A DNA stretch of 64,000 nt from Candidatus Freyarchaeum deiterrae (lineage in GTDB: Archaea; Asgardarchaeota; Jordiarchaeia; Jordiarchaeales; Jordiarchaeaceae): assembly GCA_037305845.1 (NCBI GenBank), contig CP147778.1, positions 1,600,001 through 1,664,000 of the forward strand, written 5' to 3'. Under the pieces are notes generated by a model. The model was not told where the DNA came from. It saw only the letters and a list, made by a program, of their open reading frames with translations, and did not search any database. Below, in pieces: positions 12,201-62,069 of the stretch. The position numbers and the translations under genes were made by a program. How positions within the stretch are numbered: the stretch's first letter is position 1; each line of letters starts with the position of its first letter.

Positions 12201-12580
12201 ATAAGGAGATTGAAGAAATTGGGATGCGTGTTGCAATGGATTTTGAAATTGCTCAAAGTCGAAGCCCGGAGGATGTTGCCGCTCAGAATTTAGGCTTTGA
12301 CATACGTTCAAAAGCGACAGATGAGAACATTAGGTACATAGAGGTTAAAGCTAGGGCAAGAGAAAGCAAGATAGCACTTACCCCTAATGAATGGTTAATG
12401 GCTCATAGATTGGGAAACGAATACTGGCTTTATGTTGTGGTAAATGCTTCCAAGACACCTGAACTTTACACAATACAAAATCCAGCAGAGAAACTAAAAC
12501 CTGAGGAAGAGACAGAAGTCGTTCGATACATCGTAACAGAGTGGAAAGACGCAGCTAACAAAGAGATAGTAGATGGTTGA
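9227..12580 (+). CDS. SNF2-family helicase with C-terminal DUF3883-like nuclease domain
   Basis: [45 protein letters not shown]-terminal GFDIRS...YIEVK...LTPNEW. The start may lie further upstream (ORF opens at 9116). Confidence 0.9.
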
Positions 12581-15285
12581 TATGGAGGATAAAAGGCTTA
12601 TAGAAGTTGATTTCCCATTAAAAGAAGTAAGTGAAGAATCAGCGAGGGAGAAGAGCATTCATCGTGGTCATATTTCCGCCCTTCACATTTGGTGGGCTCG
12701 TCGACCACTAGCTGCGTCTAGAGCAACTACTTTTGAAGCTTTAGTTCTTGTGCCAGATAATCATGAAAAGTTAATGAAAAAACTCGAGTTTGTTGCAGAA
12801 CTTTCGAAATGGGAAAACTCTCTGAACCAAAATTTAATAGAAAAGGCTAGAGGAGAGATTAGAGATTTTTTTGGTGAAAGAATACCTAAAGTCTTAGATT
12901 GTTTCGCTGGCGGAGGAGCAATCCCTTTAGAGGCGCTAAGGTTGGGATGCAACACTTATGCGTTGGAATACAACCCTGTTGCTGTTTTGATACTTAAGGC
13001 TATACTCGAATATCCCCAAAAGTTTGGAAAAGGAAAAACTACAGTAAAAAGAGAGCTTCATTCAGCGAACAATCAGCTCATTGACGATGTTAAAAAATGG
13101 GGAAACTGGGTATTGGAGGAAACTAGGAAAGAAATCGGAAAGTTTTATCCACCAGACCCTGACGGAAGCACTCCTGTGGGTTATATATGGGCAAGGACTG
13201 TAAGATGCAATAATCCCTCCTGCGGCACTGAAATCCCTCTTGTAAGGCAAACTTGGCTTGCTAAGAAGAATGTCAAGAAGGTTGCTTACAAGGTTATTTC
13301 TGAAAACAATAAAATTGGGTTTAAAATTAAGGAAGATAATGGAATAGACTTTGACCCAGAAATAGGCACTGTTTCAAGAGCAAAGGTCATTTGCCCTTGT
13401 TGTAGAGGGGGGCTATCAGATAAAGAAGTAAGAAAACAATTTGTTGATAGAAAAGCGGGGCAGATGATGGTTGCAGTCGTGCTTCATCATTCGAAAAGGC
13501 CAGGCAAAATCTACCGGCCCTGTACTGAAAATGATATACACGTTTTCAGAGAAGCCGAGAAATATCTACAGAAGAAGAGAAAAGACCTCTTTGACAAATG
13601 GGGGTTCGATCCTGTGCCAGATGAACCAACACCAGAAGGAAAGGGTAGCGGGGCTGAAAGAGCATTTTCAGTACGTAGCTATGGTCTCGATACCTGGGGT
13701 GATCTTTTCAACTCAAGACAGAAATTAGCGTTAATAACCTTTGTAGAAAAAGTGAGAAATATAAATAAGAGTATAATCGAGAAAGGGTACGAGGAAGAAT
13801 ATGCAAAGGTCGTGGCGAGTTATTTGGCACTGGGAGTCGATAAAGTAGCAGATTATAATAATGTCTTATGTCAGTGGAGAAATAATCTTGAGACTGTTGG
13901 ACATGCCTTCGCAAGGCAAGCGTTACCAATGCTTTGGGATTATGTGGAGGGAAATCCAATAACGGGTACTTCAGGAACATGGTCAGGCGCAATTGAATGG
14001 ATTGGAATGGCAGTCGATGCTTCCGAAAAAGTTTCTTCTTTCTCTGCTACTTTATCTCTATCCTCTGCCACAGATCTTCCATATTCCGACGACTTCTTCG
14101 ACGCAGTAATCACTGATCCACCCTATTACGACAATGTGCCTTATTCTTACCTGTCTGATTTCTTTTACGTTTGGCTCAAAAGGACAATAGGGGATTTATA
14201 CCCTGAATTCTTCTCAACTCCTCTTACACCCAAATCAAAGGAGATCGTGGCTTATTCTCATGGTAAGAGTGGCTTAAGAAGGAAAAAGATCCTTTGAGGG
14301 TATGATTACTCAATCCTTTAAAGAAATCCATAGAGTTTTGAAGTATGATGGTATAGCCGTAATAGTGTTTGCTTACAAATCTACCGAGGCATGGGAAACC
14401 ATCATTAATAGTCTTCTAAAATCAGGTTTGGTACTCACAGCTTCTTGGCCAATTCATACAGAGATGAAGGCAAGGCTTAGAGCTATGGAAAGCGCAGCCT
14501 TAGCTTCTTCTGTCTATATGGTGTGTAGAAAGCGCACGGAAGAAAAGATTGCATATTTTAACGAAATAAAAGAAGAGATTGAAAGTAGAATCAAGGAAAA
14601 ACTTACCCAGTTTTGGCAACAGGGCATAAGCGGTGCGGACTTCTTTGTTAGCGCAATAGGTCCTGCTGTAGAAGTATTTGGAAAATACTCAAAGGTCGAA
14701 AAATTTTCGGGTGAAGAGGTTTCTGTTCAGGAATTGTTAGAATATGTGAGAAAAATTGTGAGTGAATTCGCTTTGGAAAGAGTTTTAAAAAGAGCGGATC
14801 TGGGAGGAATAGACGCTGAAACAAGATTCTACTTGCTGTGGAGATGGACATTTGGCAATGCCAAAGTGCCTTTTGACGACGCAATAAAACTTTCCAGACC
14901 CATGGGCGTTGAGCTTACAAAATTATGGGATGGTGGAGAACTCGTCAGAAAAGAAAAAGGATCCGTCAAAGTCCTTACTTCTCAAGACAGGGCAAAAGAT
15001 CCTTCCTTCTTAAGAAAAACAAAGTTCAAATCCATGATAGATGTTCTTCATTACGTGTTAGTGTTGTGGGAACATGGAGAAAGAGAAAAAGTCAAGGAAA
15101 TCTTGAGTGAGACAGGGTATGCTGGAAACGAGATATTTTGGCAAACTGCTCAAGCCATTTCAGAAATTCTTCCAAAAGGGGATAAAGAAAAGCAATTACT
15201 TCAAGGATTTCTTTACGGTAAAGAAGTTTATGTTAAAGCAGCTAGAGGAAAAACAAGTTTACTTGATTATATGGAGAGTGAATAA
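12573..15285 (+). pseudogene. DUF1156-family adenine DNA methyltransferase, split by a frameshift near 14275
   Basis: [23 protein letters not shown] and TDPPYY in ORF 12573-14297. The expected continuation [14 protein letters not shown] is in the frame of ORF 14302-15285. Could be an assembly indel. Confidence 0.75.
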
Positions 15286-17946
15286 ATGAGCGTAAAGCCT
15301 TGGTGGCAAGTCGCAGTCCCACATAAGGACATTCGAGAAGGCAGATTGGAAGAAGCTGTCTTCGCAGCTAATCTCGGGGATGTATTCCAAAACAAAGGCC
15401 CTATAGACTACAGAGACCCAGAACTCTTCTTTAAAGGAACATACTTCACCGCTGGACTAACCAATCTAATCGGAGCTGTTCTATCAAAACTCTCAGGCAA
15501 AAGAAAAGGCGACACAGTCGTCCAAATTCAAACACCTTTCGGTGGTGGCAAAACCCACGCGTTACTCGCATTATATCACACTTTCAAATATGGCAACAAA
15601 ATTGCACACATACCAATAGTTAAAAAAATACTGGAAGAAAATAAACTTGAAGGCATACCAGAAACAAAGGTCGTAGTTTTTGTAGGAGAATATGGAGACC
15701 CGCTTAAGGGCAAAACCCTCTGGGGAGAAATAGCCCACCAACTTAAATCTTATAAACTTATGGAGGAATACGACCAAAAGCGTGTAGCCCCTGGAAAAGA
15801 GCTAATAGCTGGCCTCCTCTCGAAAAACCAACCCGTTCTCATACTGATAGACGAACTCCTGCAATACGTTGTAAGAACCATGGGCGTTAAAGTTGAAGAA
15901 GGAACACTGAAAGGTCAGGTCGAAGCTTTTCTCAAGACGCTCACAGAAGCTGTGGCGTCCGCTGATAACTGCGCCATAATCTCTACGCTTCCTTCAAGTG
16001 TCTCTGAAGGCTTTGAAGATGCAGAAAAATCCGAAAGAATCTTGGGAGAACTTCAGAAAATCTTCGGAAGAGTAGAAAAAATCTATGCTCCAGTTGAGGG
16101 CGAAGAAATCTACGAAATAATAAGAAAGAGACTTTTCGAAGAGCTAGGAGATGAAAGCGAACATAGAACAGTCGCAGAAGAATACTTTAATATGTACCAA
16201 AAACTCGGCGAGGACATCCCATCCGAGTACAGAGAAGTGGCTTACAAAGAAAGAATTGTGCGAGCTTACCCTTTTCATCCAGAAACGATAGATATACTCT
16301 TTGAAAGATGGGCAACAATTCCCGGTTTTCAGAGAACTAGAGGGGTGCTGAGACTCTTAGCCGAAGTTGTGGCAGACCTTTTCATGAAAGAACATTCAGC
16401 TCCACTAATCCAGCCAGCCCACTTAAATTTCGAAAATACCTCCATAAGAAGAGAATTCGTTAAACATATTGGAAACGCATTCGAAGGAGTAATTGCTTCA
16501 GATGTTGACGGCCCAGCGGCTAAGGCACCGAAAATAGACAGAGAAATGGGAACAGAATATGCAAGGTTCAAAGTTGCAACAGGCCTAGCAACTTCCGTAT
16601 TTTTCTACTCATTTAGCGGCAGCGAAAGAAAAGGAGTAACTACTCAAAGACTTAGACTAGCGTTTCTCCGTCAAGGCATACCTGCTACAATTGTAACCGA
16701 CGCCTTAAGAAGACTTGAAGACGAACTTTGGTTCCTCCACTTCGAAAAGAACCTTTACTCCTTTAGCAGCACAGTTGGTCTTAACCGAGTCGTGATAGAA
16801 AAGGAAGAAGCAGTAAAAGATGAGGAAGTGGAAGGAGAAATTAGATGGAGAATAGAAAAGATCCAAGGCACAGACTTCACTGTCTACACATGGCCAAAAA
16901 CAAACAGCGATGTCCCAGACAACAAGAAACTCAAACTCATAGTGCTTTCCCCAGAGTTAATGATAAATGACCCAACAACCGAAAATTTCGTTCAAAATAT
17001 AATTAACAAATATTCAACTGGGTTCAGAACATACAAAAACACTTTAATGTTCCTGATAACCGATCCTAACGAGTACGAAGGACTTAAAAGAATCACTCGT
17101 CGCTTTTTAGCTCTCAACGCAATAAAGGAAGACAGTGAAACCATGAAAAGGCTCACCGAAGAGGACAGTAAACGAGTGGAGCAGAAGCTAAAAGATGCCG
17201 ATGCTTCCCTACCAATTAAACTTCTTTCAGCATATCGCTACTTGGCTAAGGCTTCAAGAGACGGAAACCAAACATTCGATCTAGGCATACCAACCATAGG
17301 TGAAAAGCCAAATCTCGCAAAAAGGGCAAAACAATATCTCAAAGACCAAGAAATAATACTAGGCAAAGTTTCCCCAAAATTCCTTTTAGAAAAAACATTT
17401 TCTAAAGAGGACGAACACAAAAGCGTCACAGAAATATGGGAAGCCTTTCTCAAATACCCAGAATTGCCAATACTTGAAGACGAAAAAGTGCTAAAAGACG
17501 CCGTAGTTCAAGGGATTCAAAACGGAACCTTCGGACTGCTGATAGATGACAAAATACAATACGGAGAAGTTATTTCTCTTCTAAAAGTTGCAGAAGAAGC
17601 TCAAATCATAAGAAAGGAAATCGCCCAAAGAATAAAAGGAGAAGAAGAAAATCCCACAATCAGAATAGAAACAAAACCCAAACCAGAGGATCAAGGCATA
17701 AAGGGCGCAAGCAAAAGTGGGGCCGTAAGGAAATTTATACTTAGAGCAAATGTGCCATGGGATAAACTTTCAGAACTAATGCGAGGAGTCTTCACACCCC
17801 TAAGTCACGAGGGAGCCCAAATATCTCTAGAGGTCAAAATAGAAGCGCAGTCTGAACAGGGAATCAGCAAAGATACCTTAAACCTGAAAATAAAAGAAAC
17901 ACTATGCCAAATAGGAGCAATTGTTTTAGAAGAGAAGGAAGAATAA
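15286..17946 (+). CDS. DUF499-family AAA+ ATPase
   Basis: PWWQVAVPH N-terminus, QTPFGGGKTH Walker A, LIDE, YPFHP, FQRTRGVLR. Confidence 0.9.
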   Translation: MSVKPWWQVAVPHKDIREGRLEEAVFAANLGDVFQNKGPIDYRDPELFFKGTYFTAGLTNLIGAVLSKLSGKRKGDTVVQIQTPFGGGKTHALLALYHTFKYGNKIAHIPIVKKILEENKLEGIPETKVVVFVGEYGDPLKGKTLWGEIAHQLKSYKLMEEYDQKRVAPGKELIAGLLSKNQPVLILIDELLQYVVRTMGVKVEEGTLKGQVEAFLKTLTEAVASADNCAIISTLPSSVSEGFEDAEKSERILGELQKIFGRVEKIYAPVEGEEIYEIIRKRLFEELGDESEHRTVAEEYFNMYQKLGEDIPSEYREVAYKERIVRAYPFHPETIDILFERWATIPGFQRTRGVLRLLAEVVADLFMKEHSAPLIQPAHLNFENTSIRREFVKHIGNAFEGVIASDVDGPAAKAPKIDREMGTEYARFKVATGLATSVFFYSFSGSERKGVTTQRLRLAFLRQGIPATIVTDALRRLEDELWFLHFEKNLYSFSSTVGLNRVVIEKEEAVKDEEVEGEIRWRIEKIQGTDFTVYTWPKTNSDVPDNKKLKLIVLSPELMINDPTTENFVQNIINKYSTGFRTYKNTLMFLITDPNEYEGLKRITRRFLALNAIKEDSETMKRLTEEDSKRVEQKLKDADASLPIKLLSAYRYLAKASRDGNQTFDLGIPTIGEKPNLAKRAKQYLKDQEIILGKVSPKFLLEKTFSKEDEHKSVTEIWEAFLKYPELPILEDEKVLKDAVVQGIQNGTFGLLIDDKIQYGEVISLLKVAEEAQIIRKEIAQRIKGEEENPTIRIETKPKPEDQGIKGASKSGAVRKFILRANVPWDKLSELMRGVFTPLSHEGAQISLEVKIEAQSEQGISKDTLNLKIKETLCQIGAIVLEEKEE

Positions 17947-18245: not shown

Positions 18246-18383
18246 TGGCGCACGGAGAGGGATTTGAACCCCCGCATCCCGCAAGGGATACTGGCTCTCA
18301 AGGCCTACGCTTGAAAGAGATACCTCATTCAACCAGCGCCGTTTGGTGGCACATTTCATGTGCTTCCGCTTGGCTATCCGTGC
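18246..18383 (-). tRNA. tRNA-Ser(TGA) with two BHB introns (18344-18363 in D-loop; 18305-18333 at 29/30), CCA encoded
   Basis: Acceptor stem GCACGGA/TCCGTGC. After splicing the anticodon arm is CTGGC-CTTGAGA-GCCAG. Long variable arm, GTTCAAATC T-loop, G73. Confidence 0.9.
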
Positions 18384-18513: not shown

Positions 18514-19332
18514 TTATTTTTTGCTAAGCTGGTATAGTTCATCGAATATTTCGGGTCTAAGGTCTCGTAGTACTGGTGCTGCTATTCTTGATGCTTTTAA
18601 ATCCGAATAGTCGATTGTTGCGGTTACTAGGTCTTCCTCATCGTATTTTGCTTTTATTATTATTGTGCCGTCTGGGCCAACTATGCGGCTTCCTCCCCAG
18701 AAAATTAAACCGTCTTCAACTCCTACTAGGTTCACGTAAGCCAAAAAAACCGTATTTTCCATGGCTCTGGAGGATATAAATGTTTCAAAGTACCCGGTGC
18801 GGGTGGCAGGTGAAGCTGATATACAAACTATTAATTGTGAACCCATGAGCGTGAGCTGGCGTGCGATTTCTGGGAAGTATATGTCGTAGCAAATCATTAA
18901 ACCGATTTTTCCAATTTCGGTTTCCAGTATTTGTGTCTCGTATCCTTGTCTGAAATATCTTTTTTCTTCGAAAACTAAGTGTGTTGGTAGATATTTCTTA
19001 CGGTACTTTCCAATATACCCTTTTGGCCCCACCATTACTGAAGTGTTATATAAGACGCCTTCTCCGGCTTCTTCTACCATTCCGAATACTACATGTATAT
19101 CATTCTTGTTTGCAGTGTTCTCTATTTTTTTCACCGAGGTTCCAGGGATGCTTTCTGCTAGGGAGTAGTATTGGTCTTTGCATGAGTAGCCGGTGAGTAT
19201 TAGTTCTGGGAAGATTACTAGCTGTGCTTTTTGGCTTGCCGCTTCGGCTATTATTTTATTCATTTTTTGCAGATTCTTTTCTTTGTCTTCGAGTGTTGGT
19301 ACCATTTGTGCTAGGGCTAGCTTTACTTTCAT
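18514..19332 (-). CDS. Nitrilase/carbon-nitrogen hydrolase family amidohydrolase
   Basis: FPEL, YRKKYL and ICYDIYFPE (E-K-C triad). Confidence 0.92.
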   Translation of the reverse strand: MKVKLALAQMVPTLEDKEKNLQKMNKIIAEAASQKAQLVIFPELILTGYSCKDQYYSLAESIPGTSVKKIENTANKNDIHVVFGMVEEAGEGVLYNTSVMVGPKGYIGKYRKKYLPTHLVFEEKRYFRQGYETQILETEIGKIGLMICYDIYFPEIARQLTLMGSQLIVCISASPATRTGYFETFISSRAMENTVFLAYVNLVGVEDGLIFWGGSRIVGPDGTIIIKAKYDEEDLVTATIDYSDLKASRIAAPVLRDLRPEIFDELYQLSKK

Positions 19333-19429
19333 AAGTTCGTCTCCAACAATTTAATATATTTTGGGAATTATAGTAGCTTGATACACTTTTATGTTTATAC
19401 AAGTTATTTCTTATGGAGGCTTTAGTAGA

Positions 19430-20305
19430 ATGAAACTTTCAAAAGAGGTACTTAATATTGAGCCAGAATTTGTTGAGAAGCGTGTTCTTAAATTTATTCG
19501 TGCTCGGGTTACTGATGTGGGTGTTTCAGGAGTGGTTATGGGTCTGAGTGGAGGTATTGATTCTTCGGTTGTTGCTGCTCTTTGTGTAAAAGCTTTGGGC
19601 CCGGAAAGAGTATTAGGGCTGATGTTACCCGAGAAGGATAGCGATCCTAACGATATTAAAGATGCTGTAAAAATAGCTAAGCAGCTTGAAAATCCCTATG
19701 AAGTAGTAGATATAACTTCAATAATTAATGCTTGCCGGGAAACCTATTTAAAGGATGCCTCGGATGCTCCTACAGTAGTGGGAAATGTGAAGGCACGTGT
19801 ACGCATGTTAACACTTTATTGCTATGCAAATAAACTGCATCGCTTGGTCGTTGGTACTGGAAATAAAAGTGAAATATTAATCGGATACAGTTAACGGTTG
19901 ATCACCGTAACTGCCGAAAACTTTACCAAGTACGGCGACGGCGGCTCAGATATATTACCAATAGGTGATCTTTATAAAACCCAAGTTCGTCAACTGGCAG
20001 ATTTCCTAGAAATCCCAAAAGAAATAATTAAGAAAACTCCTACTGCGGGACTTTGGAAGGGTCAAACGGACGAAGCCGAAATTGGTGTTTCATACGATGT
20101 TTTGGACCTGATACTTTATGGTTTAGAACATTGGATGAATGAGTCGGAAATAGCGGAAGAACTCAATGTACCACTTGAAAAAGTGAATAAAATAGTAGAA
20201 ATGTGGAGGAAAAGTGAACATAAAAGAAAAGGCCCGGTTGTCTTTAAATTATCACATAGAACTCCAAGTTTAGACTGGAGGATTCCATTTAACTATTATG
20301 TGTAA
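19430..20305 (+). CDS. nadE: NAD+ synthetase, two exons (19430-19886, 19920-20305)
   Basis: GLSGGIDS, NVKARVRM and PTAGLWKGQTDE. Removing the 33-nt insert restores GTGNKSEILIGYFTKYGDGG. Confidence 0.92.
19887..19919 (+). other. 33-nt BHB-type intron in nadE mRNA
   Basis: TCGG-AT^A-[CAGTT a ACGGT tgatc ACCGT AACTG]-CCGA-AA^A. Contains an in-frame TAA. Confidence 0.85.
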
Positions 20306-20328: not shown

Positions 20329-20583
20329 ATGGGGCGTAGAAGAAGGAAAAAGGTTCAAAGAAGACCCGAAAAACGGATACCCACGGTGTTTACCTGCCCC
20401 TCATGTGGAGAGGATAGTGTAAAAGTGGAGATTAAAAAAAACGAGGGATACGCAGTGGTAGGATGTGGTAATCCTAATTGCGGGTTAAAGAAGAATATAA
20501 AAATTGGCAAACTTACGGAACCGGTAGATGCGTATAGCGAATTTGTGGATTCATTTTATGAAGAAGAAAAAGCAGCCAAATAA
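20329..20583 (+). CDS. elf1: Transcription elongation factor Elf1
   Basis: MGRRRRK, FTCPSC, CGxxxCG and EPVDAYSEFVD. Confidence 0.92.
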   Translation: MGRRRRKKVQRRPEKRIPTVFTCPSCGEDSVKVEIKKNEGYAVVGCGNPNCGLKKNIKIGKLTEPVDAYSEFVDSFYEEEKAAK

Positions 20584-25967: not shown

Positions 25968-26071
25968 GGGCGGATGGTCTAGAACTCTTCCTATGAGAAG
26001 AGGAGTGGAAAGTTTGGTATGATTCCTGGTTCGGGACCAGGAGGCCGTCGGTTCAAATCCGGCTCCGCCCA
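25968..26071 (+). tRNA. tRNA-Pro(CGG) with a 30-nt intron at 15/16 (25983-26012)
   Basis: Acceptor stem GGGCGGA/TCCGCCC, anticodon arm CTGGT-TCGGG-ACCAG, GTTCAAATC. The intron forms a BHB-like motif. Confidence 0.92.
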
Positions 26072-59621: not shown

Positions 59622-62069
59622 TTAGTCCTCAATCAACTTCCAGAACTCCACATCATCCATAAAGCTCTTACCCACCCGTATACGCGAAGGCCCCGTAACA
59701 TTTTCCAATAATAACTTGCGTTCGATTTTGTCGACCATGCGACGCGAGAACAAAACTGTATCTGGATTTACACTAATGCTGTTAGCTCCTAATCGAACTA
59801 GAAACTCCAAATAATCAGGGTAAACACTGGGGGCCTGTCCACAGATAGAAGTAGTTACTCCGTATTTTTTACATATCTTAATAGTAAATGCTATTGCACG
59901 TAGAACTGCTAAATTACGCTCATCATATATCTCTTGAACACTAGCATCGTTTCTATCTACACCCAGAATTAACATTGTTAAATCGTTAGTACCAAAGCTA
60001 ACTCCATTGATTCCTTCTTGACAGAATTTGTCTATTAATAGTACACAGCTTGGAACCTCAACCATAATCCAGATTTGGAAGTCTGGGTCTACTCCCGGAT
60101 CTAGTCCTTCTTCTTTCATAATCTGTTTTACTTTCCTGAAAACGTCTACTGATTGCACAAAGGGTAGCATTACCCAGAGATTTCTCAGCCCGAATTCTTC
60201 TCTGACTTTTTTTATTGCTCTACATTCAAGTCGAAAAACATCGGGTTCTTTTATGTATCGGAATTGCCCTCTGTATCCTATCATAGGATTGGGGCCTACA
60301 TGCCCCGTTTCTTCCTCGTATTTCCTTCCACCTTCTAAAGCCAAGAATTCATCGGGTTTAAAGTCTAGAAATCTGTACACCACTGGACCTGGGCTGAAGG
60401 CATCGGCGACTTTTCTTACTCCGTCTGCAAATTGGTCTATCATTTCTTGTTCCCCGCCTTCTTCAATGAGTTTTCTTGGGTGTTTCCCTAATGTTATCAT
60501 CAAGTGCTCTGCTCTGAGTAGTCCAACACCATCCGCCTGTGTCTGTTTTGCAACTCTTTCTGCTATTTCAGGCATCGATAAGTTCACGTAGATTTTAGTA
60601 GCTGTAGATGCTGTCGTTGTGCCTACAGGCGCGGCTACGGTTTCTTCTTCCTTTTCGGCTTTTAGAATTCCTCGATATATCAGTCCTTTTCCACCATCAA
60701 CAGTTATTTGCCTCTCGCTTTGTAGAACATTGGTTGCCTTTTTTGTTCCTACTACACAGGGGATTCCGAGTTCTCGGGATACTATTGCCGCGTGGCATGT
60801 GTACCCTCCTTCGTCAGTTACTATCGCGGCTGCTTTTTTCATTACTGGAACCCAATCAGGTGTAGTCATTCTAGTCACTAAAATGTCTCCTTCCTTCAAT
60901 TCTCCTATGTGATTAATGTCTTTAATGACTCTCACCGGGCCAGCTCCTATTCCTGGGGATACGCCTAGTCCCTTAAGTATCATCTCTCGTTCCGTAGTAG
61001 TTTCTGGTTGGTTGGTTTTGGTATTTTTTTTTGCGGGTCCTGTGCTTGAACCATGTACTGTTTCCGGCCTAGATTGAAGTAAGTATATTTCTCCCTTTTG
61101 ATCTACTGCCCACTCGATGTCTTGAGCTGTTTTATAATGTTTTTCGATTTGTTTGCCATACTGGGCTATTCTCTTTATTTCTTCATCTGTTAAGGCTGGG
61201 ATATTTTGTCTTTCCGGAGGGATTTCTAAATGTTCAGTCTTTTCTGTACTAGGGTTTAATGCGTACTCGAGCTTTTTGGTTACAATGTGTTTTTCGACTA
61301 TTTCTAGATTAGATTTGTTCACTACATACGTGTCTGGTGTTACTGCCCCACTTACTACCGCTTCTCCCAGCCCCCAATTAGCTTCTATCATTATTTTTGT
61401 ATTATCCCCCGTTGCTGGGTGAAGTGTAAACATAACTCCCGCTGATTTTGGCTCAACCATAAGTTGAACAGCCACGCTAATGAGGACGTCTTGATGTCTG
61501 AATCCCTTTTCTTCTCTGTAAGTTATGGCTCTTTTTGTAAATAGGCTACTCCAACATTTTTCTACGGCTTCCAGCAACCCTTCTCTATTTTCGTTTAGAA
61601 AGGTCTCCTGCTGTCCTGCAAAAGAAGCGCCTGGCAATAGGGGAAGAATGGTTTAACCCATTACTTTATCCTCTGCGGAGGCGCTCGATCTGACCGCTAC
61701 TAATGGCTCTTTCTCTTTTACTCTCTTAGCTAGTTCGTCATAACTTTTCATTATTGCTTCTTGAATCTCTTCAGGGATTGGTGTAGATTCAATAAGTTGC
61801 CTGATTTTGTTTGATGCTTCTTCAAGTTGTTGGAAGTCTTTAGTGTCGGCTTTTTCAAGTATTTTGAATACTTTATTTTTTATATTTGTGTCTTCTAGGA
61901 ATTTCTTGTAGGCATAGGTAGTAATTGAAAAACCTGGTGGAACTGGGACTTTGGCTTTTGTTATTAGTTCACCCAAATTAGCGTTTTTTCCTCCTACCTT
62001 GGACACGTCTTCCTTTCCTACCTCTTCAAACCATAAGATTAAATCATTTTCATCGCGGCTCATATTCAC
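59622..62069 (-). CDS. ppsA: Phosphoenolpyruvate synthase, two exons (62069-61668, 61637-59622)
   Basis: VGGKNANLGE, GGYTCHAAIVSRE and SFGTNDL. Removing the 30-nt insert restores VRSSASAEDLPGASFAGQ. Confidence 0.93.
61638..61667 (-). other. 30-nt BHB-type intron in ppsA mRNA
   Basis: GCA-GAGG-AT^A-[AAG t AATGG gttaaa CCATT CTT]-CCCC-TA^T-TGC. Contains an in-frame TAA. Confidence 0.83.

What the first reader, a model, noticed from the sequence alone, without database searches (positions are those of the whole stretch)
19881..19921. BHB (tRNA-type) intron inside the protein-coding gene nadE
Seen: nadE is broken by a 33-nt insert containing TAA in the conserved GY|FTKYGD motif. The pre-mRNA folds as a 4-bp helix TCGG/CCGA, two 3-nt bulges (ATA, AAA) and a 10-bp inner hairpin (CAGTT.ACGGT/ACCGT.AACTG). 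Established: the archaeal splicing endonuclease EndA cuts after the second nucleotide of each bulge. Applying that rule removes 19887-19919 and gives ATC GGA T|AC TTT ACC AAG (IGYFTK) exactly. The only well-established archaeal mRNA intron of this type I know is in crenarchaeal cbf5. Inference: a normally essential gene depends on pre-mRNA splicing by the tRNA machinery.
Basis: partly seen in the sequence, partly recalled or inferred. Interest (0 to 1): 0.95.

Follow-up and report, generated by a model that had tools for sequence, protein, structure and literature searches.

The report
tRNA-type intron in Asgard archaeal nadE
In this Asgard archaeon the gene for an NAD-making enzyme is interrupted by a conserved 33-base hairpin shaped like a tRNA intron; it and about fifteen other protein genes of the same genome probably need cutting and re-joining by the tRNA-splicing enzymes, which has so far been shown for the coding region of only one archaeal gene.

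Summary
Removing 19887-19919 gives a 280-aa NH3-type NadE. The junctions fold as a relaxed bulge-helix-bulge (no outer exon-exon helix). Five divergent relatives in the Jordarchaeum/Freyarchaeum group carry the same 33-nt insert. It is far more conserved than neutral sites (3/33 changes against 46%), and exon 2 is under strong purifying selection, so this is neither decay nor an assembly error. Close kin lack it precisely. A Bathyarchaeia-type nadE has a 33-nt insert at the same site with identical helix and bulges but an unrelated hairpin. The genome has a two-subunit EndA with the substrate-relaxing loop, RtcB, and a cbf5 intron at the crenarchaeal site. A motif-free census found 9 of 15 short insertions fitting the motif (about 0.3 expected), giving about 16 candidate genes; Atabeyarchaeum shares the cbf5 and pcm sites. 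'Essential' is not supported: an intact glutamine-dependent NadE is present. This scan noted the system before: other genes of this genome, and nadE in a Bathyarchaeia genome. I found no paper describing it.

The parts
19430..19886 (+). nadE exon 1 (ATG 19430 after a GGAGG at 19416-19420; an upstream in-frame ATG lies at 19391); ends on the first base of the Tyr codon of GYFTK
   Evidence: profile positions 4-148
19881..19884 (+). exonic strand of the central 4-bp helix (TCGG)
   Evidence: invariant in 5 variants; identical in the Bathyarchaeia-type gene
19885..19887 (+). 5' bulge AT|A, predicted 5' cut after 19886
   Evidence: cut rule from PMC2738675
19887..19919 (+). 33-nt intron with in-frame TAA (19892-19894)
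19888..19913 (+). inner hairpin, 10 pairs with one bulged A and a 5-nt loop; one C-G/U-A compensatory change among relatives
19914..19917 (+). intronic strand of the central helix (CCGA)
19918..19920 (+). 3' bulge AA|A, predicted 3' cut after 19919; no outer helix follows it
   Evidence: (outer pairs 0)
19920..20305 (+). nadE exon 2, under purifying selection (dN/dS about 0.04 against G002)
   Evidence: profile positions 150-264
19898..19900 (+). in-frame TTG inside the intron, used by gene callers as start of a 135-aa second ORF (basis of the split-protein rival)
18514..19332 (-). divergent nitrilase/amidase-family gene, kept beside nadE in all loci read and in the Bathyarchaeia-type locus; possibly a stand-alone glutaminase partner (inference)
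20329..20583 (+). elf1-like gene directly downstream, probably co-transcribed
25984..26011 (+). 28-nt D-loop intron of tRNA-Pro(CGG) (gene 25968-26071) with the same 4-bp helix, two 3-nt bulges and inner hairpin: internal comparator
61638..61667 (-). second candidate mRNA intron in this window: 30 nt with in-frame TAA in a PEP-synthase-like gene, in the SAED|LP motif; central helix 3 of 4 pairs

Best explanation
The 33 nt are a protein-spliced intron of the archaeal tRNA type. Shown: the pre-mRNA can fold into a 4-bp helix with two 3-nt bulges on opposite strands around a hairpin; excision at the bulge rule restores the invariant Tyr codon from one base of exon 1 and two of exon 2; insert and both exons are under purifying selection; the genome encodes a catalytic and a structural EndA subunit and RtcB. 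Inferred: the two-subunit EndA, whose crenarchaeal-type loop admits relaxed motifs, cuts after 19886 and 19919; RtcB joins the exons (and probably circularises the intron); unspliced mRNA stops at the TAA and yields no enzyme. The intron was gained once near the base of the Jordarchaeum/Freyarchaeum group and lost precisely at least twice. It is best read as a tolerated by-product of a permissive splicing machinery that has let such introns into about 16 protein genes of this genome, rather than a regulatory switch. The matching site in Bathyarchaeia is more likely a parallel gain at a favourable sequence than shared descent.
For: Five distinct 33-nt variants at the same site in relatives. Intron differences 1-6 of 33 where four-fold sites differ 27-64%; window against G002 3/33 versus 15 expected, P 5e-6 (kin are not independent). 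Changes fall in the loop and closing pair, in one C-G/U-A double change, and in one change absorbed by moving the bulge. Exon 2 dN 0.051 against dS 1.42, exon 1 0.152 against 0.74. Bathyarchaeia-type gene L291: same cut sites, helix and bulges, unrelated hairpin, a different stop (TAG) that removes the Tyr unless spliced. EndA alpha is closest to A. pernix 3p1z_B (E 7.7e-43), with Y125, H133, the SVRKK lysine and loop K44 aligned; second subunit lacks the His. The genome's cbf5 has a 32-nt motif intron between bases 1 and 2 of the catalytic Asp codon, the site where splicing was shown in crenarchaea. Structure scan: 10 frame-restoring hits against 0, 3 and 0 with decoy bulge sizes. Motif-free census: 9 of 15 short insertions fit with 4/4 helix, 2 more with 3/4, about 0.3 expected; many are 28-32 nt and shift the frame, which only excision repairs. 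92-95% of tRNA genes in these genomes carry introns (PMC11291895).
Against: The covariation test is not significant (182/500 shuffles as high). The outer helix is missing. In one relative (L288) the central helix has low predicted probability in a 150-nt context. An in-frame TTG or ATG lies inside the intron in all five variants. Four of the 15 census sites did not fit the motif at the best register.
Confidence: 0.85

Rival explanations
1. Split enzyme: translation stops at the TAA and re-initiates at the TTG at 19898, giving two chains (154 and 135 aa) that assemble into one NadE.
For: An in-frame TTG or ATG follows the stop within 3-6 nt in all five variants and in L291, and gene callers annotate two ORFs. 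It would also explain purifying selection on both halves.
Against: Third codon positions in the insert (ACT GCC GAA AAC) are invariant where synonymous sites elsewhere differ by about half. The start codon sits inside a stable stem with no Shine-Dalgarno match. In L291 the first chain would end at Gly and lose the invariant Tyr. A Bathyarchaeia-cluster protein reads PEDF instead of PENF, a change at the one base of that codon that lies inside the intron. It does not explain the bulge geometry or the frame-shifting inserts in other genes.
Confidence: 0.06
2. Recoding on unspliced mRNA: stop read-through giving an 11-residue insertion, or ribosomal bypassing of 33 nt helped by the hairpin.
For: The insert is a multiple of three in all six versions, and a hairpin follows the stop, as in known recoding signals (own knowledge).
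Against: TAA is the commonest true stop of this genome (1191 of long ORFs). The motif is contiguous in the other homologues aligned here and in the solved archaeal NadE 2e18. The stop differs in type and position in L291 and the inserted residues are unrelated. Take-off and landing codons do not match (TAC/AAC). Same-shaped inserts of 28, 29, 31 and 32 nt elsewhere cannot be read through.
Confidence: 0.04
3. The insert is removed from the RNA, but by another hairpin-recognising nuclease rather than by EndA.
For: The motif is relaxed; hairpin-triggered, spliceosome-independent excision exists in animals (SOS splicing, PMC12779559, abstract).
Against: The 4-bp helix with 3-nt bulges and cuts after the second bulge base are the EndA signature, fit the window's tRNA-Pro intron, and beat decoy bulge sizes.
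Confidence: 0.03
4. Inactivating insertion or assembly artefact; the gene is a pseudogene covered by the glutamine-dependent NadE.
For: An intact second NAD synthetase is present.
Against: Same split in six Logan contigs from public runs and in four other lineages from JGI, ENA, NCBI and Logan; no other lesions; dN/dS 0.04 downstream of the stop.
Confidence: 0.02

Closest known systems
cbf5 pre-mRNA intron of Desulfurococcales and Sulfolobales (Watanabe 2002; Yoshinari 2006; Yokobori 2009, PMC2738675)
   Same: Short intron inside a coding region, splitting a codon of a conserved motif after its first base; relaxed BHB; cut between second and third bulge base; two-subunit EndA; patchy with precise losses; 33-nt examples exist there too.
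   Different: Different gene (a metabolic enzyme), different superphylum, one of about 16 candidates in the genome rather than a lone case; splicing shown by cDNA for cbf5 but not here.
Haloferax volcanii HVO_1309 mRNA BHB intron (Schwarz 2020, PMC7714728)
   Same: EndA substrate in an mRNA, confirmed in vivo and in vitro.
   Different: Lies in the 5' UTR and does not interrupt a reading frame.
Non-canonical tRNA introns of Freyarchaeia and Atabeyarchaeia (PMC11291895; bioRxiv 10.64898/2026.10.13.758758)
   Same: Same lineages, same motif and size, repeated gains, two-subunit EndA as a permissive background.
   Different: Those papers treat tRNA genes; a text search of both found no mention of introns in protein-coding genes.
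Ire1/RtcB splicing of XBP1/HAC1 mRNA in eukaryotes (own knowledge) and SOS splicing (PMC12779559)
   Same: Non-spliceosomal removal of a structured intron from an mRNA; XBP1 is joined by RtcB.
   Different: Different nuclease and recognition structure; XBP1/HAC1 is a regulated switch, for which there is no evidence here. Resemblance in working only, not membership.

Membership tests
Archaeal BHB (EndA-spliced) intron | 4-bp central helix between exon 1 and intron end | tested here: met
   TCGG/CCGA, invariant in 5 variants and L291
Archaeal BHB (EndA-spliced) intron | 3-nt bulge at the 5' site followed by an intron-intron helix | tested here: met
   ATA then 10-pair hairpin, pair probability 0.99-1.0
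Archaeal BHB (EndA-spliced) intron, strict hBHBh' form | exon-exon helix closing the 3' bulge | tested here: not met
   outer pairs 0; fits the relaxed HBh' class described in PMC6379350
Archaeal BHB (EndA-spliced) intron | cuts after the second base of each bulge give the mature sequence | tested here: met
   restores GYFTKYGD; same rule restores tRNA-Pro and cbf5
Archaeal BHB (EndA-spliced) intron | host has an EndA able to cut relaxed motifs, and a ligase | tested here: met
   two EndA genes; triad and loop lysine aligned to A. pernix alpha; rtcB. Sequence level only
Archaeal BHB (EndA-spliced) intron | structure maintained by compensatory change | tested here: inconclusive
   one double change, 182/500 shuffles as high; overall conservation strong
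Archaeal BHB (EndA-spliced) intron | spliced RNA exists in the cell | not testable with these tools
Archaeal BHB (EndA-spliced) intron | cleavage by EndA in vitro | not testable with these tools
   needs biochemistry
NH3-dependent NAD synthetase (PRK13980) | full-length match with SGGxDS and GYFTKYGD motifs | tested here: met
   halves score 160 + 149 bits on adjoining profile positions, cut-off 255
Curated RNA families (self-splicing introns, riboswitches) | Rfam match | tested here: not met
   only two tRNA matches in the window, none at 19887-19919
Mobile or repeated element | further copies in the genome | tested here: not met
   no match longer than 12 nt elsewhere

The most novel reading that the evidence does not exclude
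Several Asgard and Bathyarchaeia lineages run routine pre-mRNA splicing of many housekeeping genes with EndA and RtcB, and some intron sites are inherited from a common ancestor of Asgard and TACK archaea: cbf5 (Freyarchaeia, Atabeyarchaeia, crenarchaea), pcm (two Asgard classes) and nadE (Freyarchaeia, Bathyarchaeia). Intron-containing mRNAs and exon ligation would then predate the spliceosome in the lineage leading to eukaryotes.
Probability: 0.25. Interest if true: 0.95.

Novelty: new variant of a known kind. Interest (0 to 1): 0.8.

Why it matters
The papers read here name cbf5 as the only archaeal coding region known to be spliced. A conserved intron in nadE, among about 16 candidate genes in one Asgard genome, would make tRNA-type mRNA splicing a regular step of gene expression in close relatives of eukaryotes. 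It makes testable whether protein-spliced mRNA introns predate the spliceosome, and how introns are gained and precisely lost in archaea. In practice, gene callers report these genes as two fragments, so core genes (cbf5, gatE, rtcB, tyrS, kae1) are being mis-annotated as broken. Metatranscriptomes of the source soil exist (PMC11291895), so the decisive test needs no culture.

Tried and rejected
I looked for a spliced product among 5.8 billion proteins: the closest intact NadE is only 74-77% identical, and the one Logan contig read (L140) also spans the divergently transcribed neighbour gene, so it looks like DNA of an intron-less relative. A loose structure scan without bulge-sequence limits did not separate true from decoy geometry; only the tighter scan did, and its limits were chosen after seeing the first candidates, which is why the motif-free census was run. 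A first excision script mis-scored in-frame inserts and was corrected. The metagenome locus search returned 80 distant nadE genes, none with an insert at this site. ARAGORN found only 10, mostly mis-called, tRNAs. Whole-gene transfer between Bathyarchaeia and Freyarchaeia is not supported: each NadE groups with its own phylum (quick tree). A single intron-bearing clade was rejected (p-AU 0.009). A junction pattern was not found in 148 other Asgard genomes searched (exact pattern, incomplete genomes, so not proof of absence). Seven literature searches found no report of Asgard mRNA introns; the library lacks most subscription papers.

Full report
Source. The window lies at C1:1600001-1664000 of a single 3,576,204-base contig. 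That size, the soil-Asgard relatives and the congener G002, named Ca. Jordarchaeum madagascariense, fit the complete 3.58-Mb genome of Ca. Freyarchaeum deiterrae (PMC11291895). The identification is an inference from size and kin.

The observation. nadE starts at 19430 and is broken by 33 nt holding an in-frame TAA. Removing 19887-19919 gives a 280-aa ORF. Only 33-nt deletions starting at 19887, 19888 or 19889 restore GYFTKYGD, and all give the same mRNA. The halves cover adjoining parts of the NAD synthase profile, and the motif is contiguous in the solved archaeal enzyme 2e18. The RNA folds as TCGG/CCGA, bulges ATA and AAA, and a 10-pair hairpin with one bulged A. No exon-exon helix closes the 3' bulge, so this is the relaxed HBh' form. 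Six Logan contigs from public sequencing runs carry the same split gene.

Conservation. Four other lineages have a 33-nt insert at the same place: L132 (JGI), G002, L284 (ENA and Logan; its protein cluster has 22 members) and L288. A further NCBI assembly shows the same two-ORF pattern at protein level. Between pairs the insert differs at 1-6 of 33 sites while four-fold sites of the exons differ at 27-64%; for the window against G002 it is 3 observed against 15 expected (P 5e-6; related genomes are not independent, so these P values overstate). The central helix never varies. Changes fall in the loop and its closing pair, in one C-G to U-A double change, and in one change absorbed by shifting the bulge. 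The formal covariation test is not significant with five sequences. Exon 2, downstream of the stop, has dN 0.051 and dS 1.42; exon 1 has 0.152 and 0.74. The gene is therefore maintained, and the stop must be got round.

History. Intron-less genes occur inside the same group: G003-G005 and the clusters of P0002, P0003 and P0004. The carriers do not form one clade (p-AU 0.009; same picture). The intron-less genes nearest G002 keep GTC GGA TAC, the exon half of the motif, while G003-G005 read ATT GGY TAC. One gain and at least two precise losses is the simplest reading (inference). The junction pattern was not found in the other Asgard genomes among 150 searched, and nadE was intact in 25 more distant Asgard loci.

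A second phylum. An earlier scan note (e1-1400339) reported a similar insert in Bathyarchaeia. I tested this independently. Short NadE fragments beginning with a foreign peptide before FTKFGD led to L291. It has a 33-nt insert at the same site and phase, with the same helix and both bulges, an unrelated inner hairpin (13 of 33 bases shared overall, most of them in the constrained ends) and a TAG that removes the Tyr unless spliced. Related fragments are labelled Bathyarchaeia, and the spliced protein groups with Bathyarchaeia NadE (SH-aLRT 98) while the window's groups with Asgard NadE. Whole-gene transfer is thus unlikely. Parallel gain at a site whose Gly-Tyr codons offer a ready helix and bulge, transfer of the intron alone, or ancient inheritance remain open; I favour parallel gain because all intermediate lineages read lack it.

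Machinery. The genome has two EndA genes. One is closest to the A. pernix catalytic subunit (E 7.7e-43) and keeps Y125, H133, the SVRKK lysine and loop lysine K44; that loop confers cutting of relaxed motifs (PMC6379350). The other lacks the His and is read as the structural subunit. rtcB is single. A tRNA-Pro gene in this window has a 28-nt intron of the same build, and 92-95% of tRNA genes in these genomes have introns.

Not a lone case. A structure scan of the genome gave 10 frame-restoring hits against 0, 3 and 0 for decoy bulge lengths. One is cbf5, with a 32-nt intron between the first and second base of the catalytic Asp codon, the site where splicing was shown in crenarchaea: an internal positive control. 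To avoid circularity I fetched 2.8 Mb of the complete Atabeyarchaeum genome G021 and defined insertions by protein homology alone. Of 15 sites with a 27-39-nt best excision and a score gain of 25 or more, 9 fit the motif with a full helix and 2 with three of four pairs, against about 0.3 expected from the per-register chance of 0.0035. Four did not fit at the best register; one of these looks like a plain TGG to TAG change and one fits at 34 nt. Both scans together give about 16 candidate genes: an HD hydrolase, alba, hdrC, rtcB, gatE, cbf5, porA, nadE, ppsA, a radical SAM gene, tyrS, ahcY, kae1, pcm, endoQ and selD (names assigned from motifs, from my own knowledge or from earlier notes, not from a library search). 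Inserts of 28, 29, 31 and 32 nt shift the frame, which read-through or re-initiation cannot repair. G021 itself has introns at the identical cbf5 and pcm sites, one 4 nt away in gatE, and several of its own, but an intact nadE. Earlier scan notes list several of the same genes; they are AI notes and are not counted as support.

Essentiality. The genome also has an intact glutamine-dependent NadE above its family cut-off and a divergent paralogue. NAD synthesis therefore need not depend on this splice. The dependence argument fits single-copy genes such as rtcB better.

Mechanism. Shown: fold, frame restoration, selection, enzymes. Inferred: EndA cuts after 19886 and 19919, RtcB ligates, and the unspliced message yields a truncated product. 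The strongest rival is a two-chain enzyme by re-initiation at the TTG inside the insert; it fails to explain base-level conservation, the lost Tyr in L291 and the frame-shifting cases.

Comparison and verdict. It works like the crenarchaeal cbf5 intron and meets every sequence-level feature of the relaxed BHB class; spliced RNA and cleavage are untested. The papers read name cbf5 and the Haloferax HVO_1309 5' UTR as the only known mRNA cases, and the searches found nothing on Asgard mRNA introns. The chemistry is known; its spread to many coding genes and to shared sites across classes and phyla is not described in what I could search. Novelty: new variant of a known kind. Interest 0.8.

Noticed in passing
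window 61638-61667 (-): 30-nt insert with in-frame TAA in the SAED|LP motif of a PEP-synthase-like gene; relaxed BHB with 3 of 4 central pairs and 3 outer pairs; removal restores VRSSASAEDLPGASFAGQ.
   Followed up: partly
G000 C1:1483415-1483446 (-) and G021 C1:383798-383838 (+): cbf5 introns (32 and 41 nt) at the same base of the catalytic Asp codon as the crenarchaeal cbf5 intron, with five or more outer pairs in G000.
   Followed up: yes
G021 C1:305604-305631, 2219068-2219108, 654017-654054, 443949-443979, 2712459-2712486, 980252-980286, 320516-320569: Atabeyarchaeum also has candidate mRNA introns: pcm at the same site as G000, gatE 4 nt away, and at least five others.
   Followed up: partly
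window 14270-14300 (+): The DUF1156/DNA-methylase-like gene (12573-15285) changes frame here; one extra A near 14275 explains it, so it looks like a plain frameshift rather than an intron. It lies with a large ATPase gene (15286-17946) in a block absent from the relatives' loci upstream of the archease/nitrilase genes, next to a tRNA gene: possibly an integrated defence island.
   Followed up: partly
window 18246-18383 (-): tRNA gene of about 138 nt, apparently with more than one intron; mis-called by ARAGORN and missed by Rfam. Not resolved.
   Followed up: no
L141/L284 about 1.1-1.7 kb upstream of nadE: Archease, the RtcB cofactor, lies two genes from nadE in all relatives read, including intron-less ones; probably ordinary synteny.
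   Followed up: no
G000 C1:1806198 (+): A TAG stands where the Atabeyarchaeum homologue has Trp (HAGCNG-W-DNGF) with both flanks well conserved: nonsense change, sequence error or read-through.
   Followed up: no
G000 C1:2161351-2161383 (-) and 2636147-2636176 (-): Stop-containing inserts of about 33 and 30 nt in conserved genes that did not fit the motif at the best register; unexplained.
   Followed up: partly
G000 C1:294030-294938 (-); L121-L129: Divergent nadE paralogue family with an internal insertion and an altered motif (SNYDEHGD in place of GYFTKYGD), in one to two copies per congener; substrate unknown.
   Followed up: no
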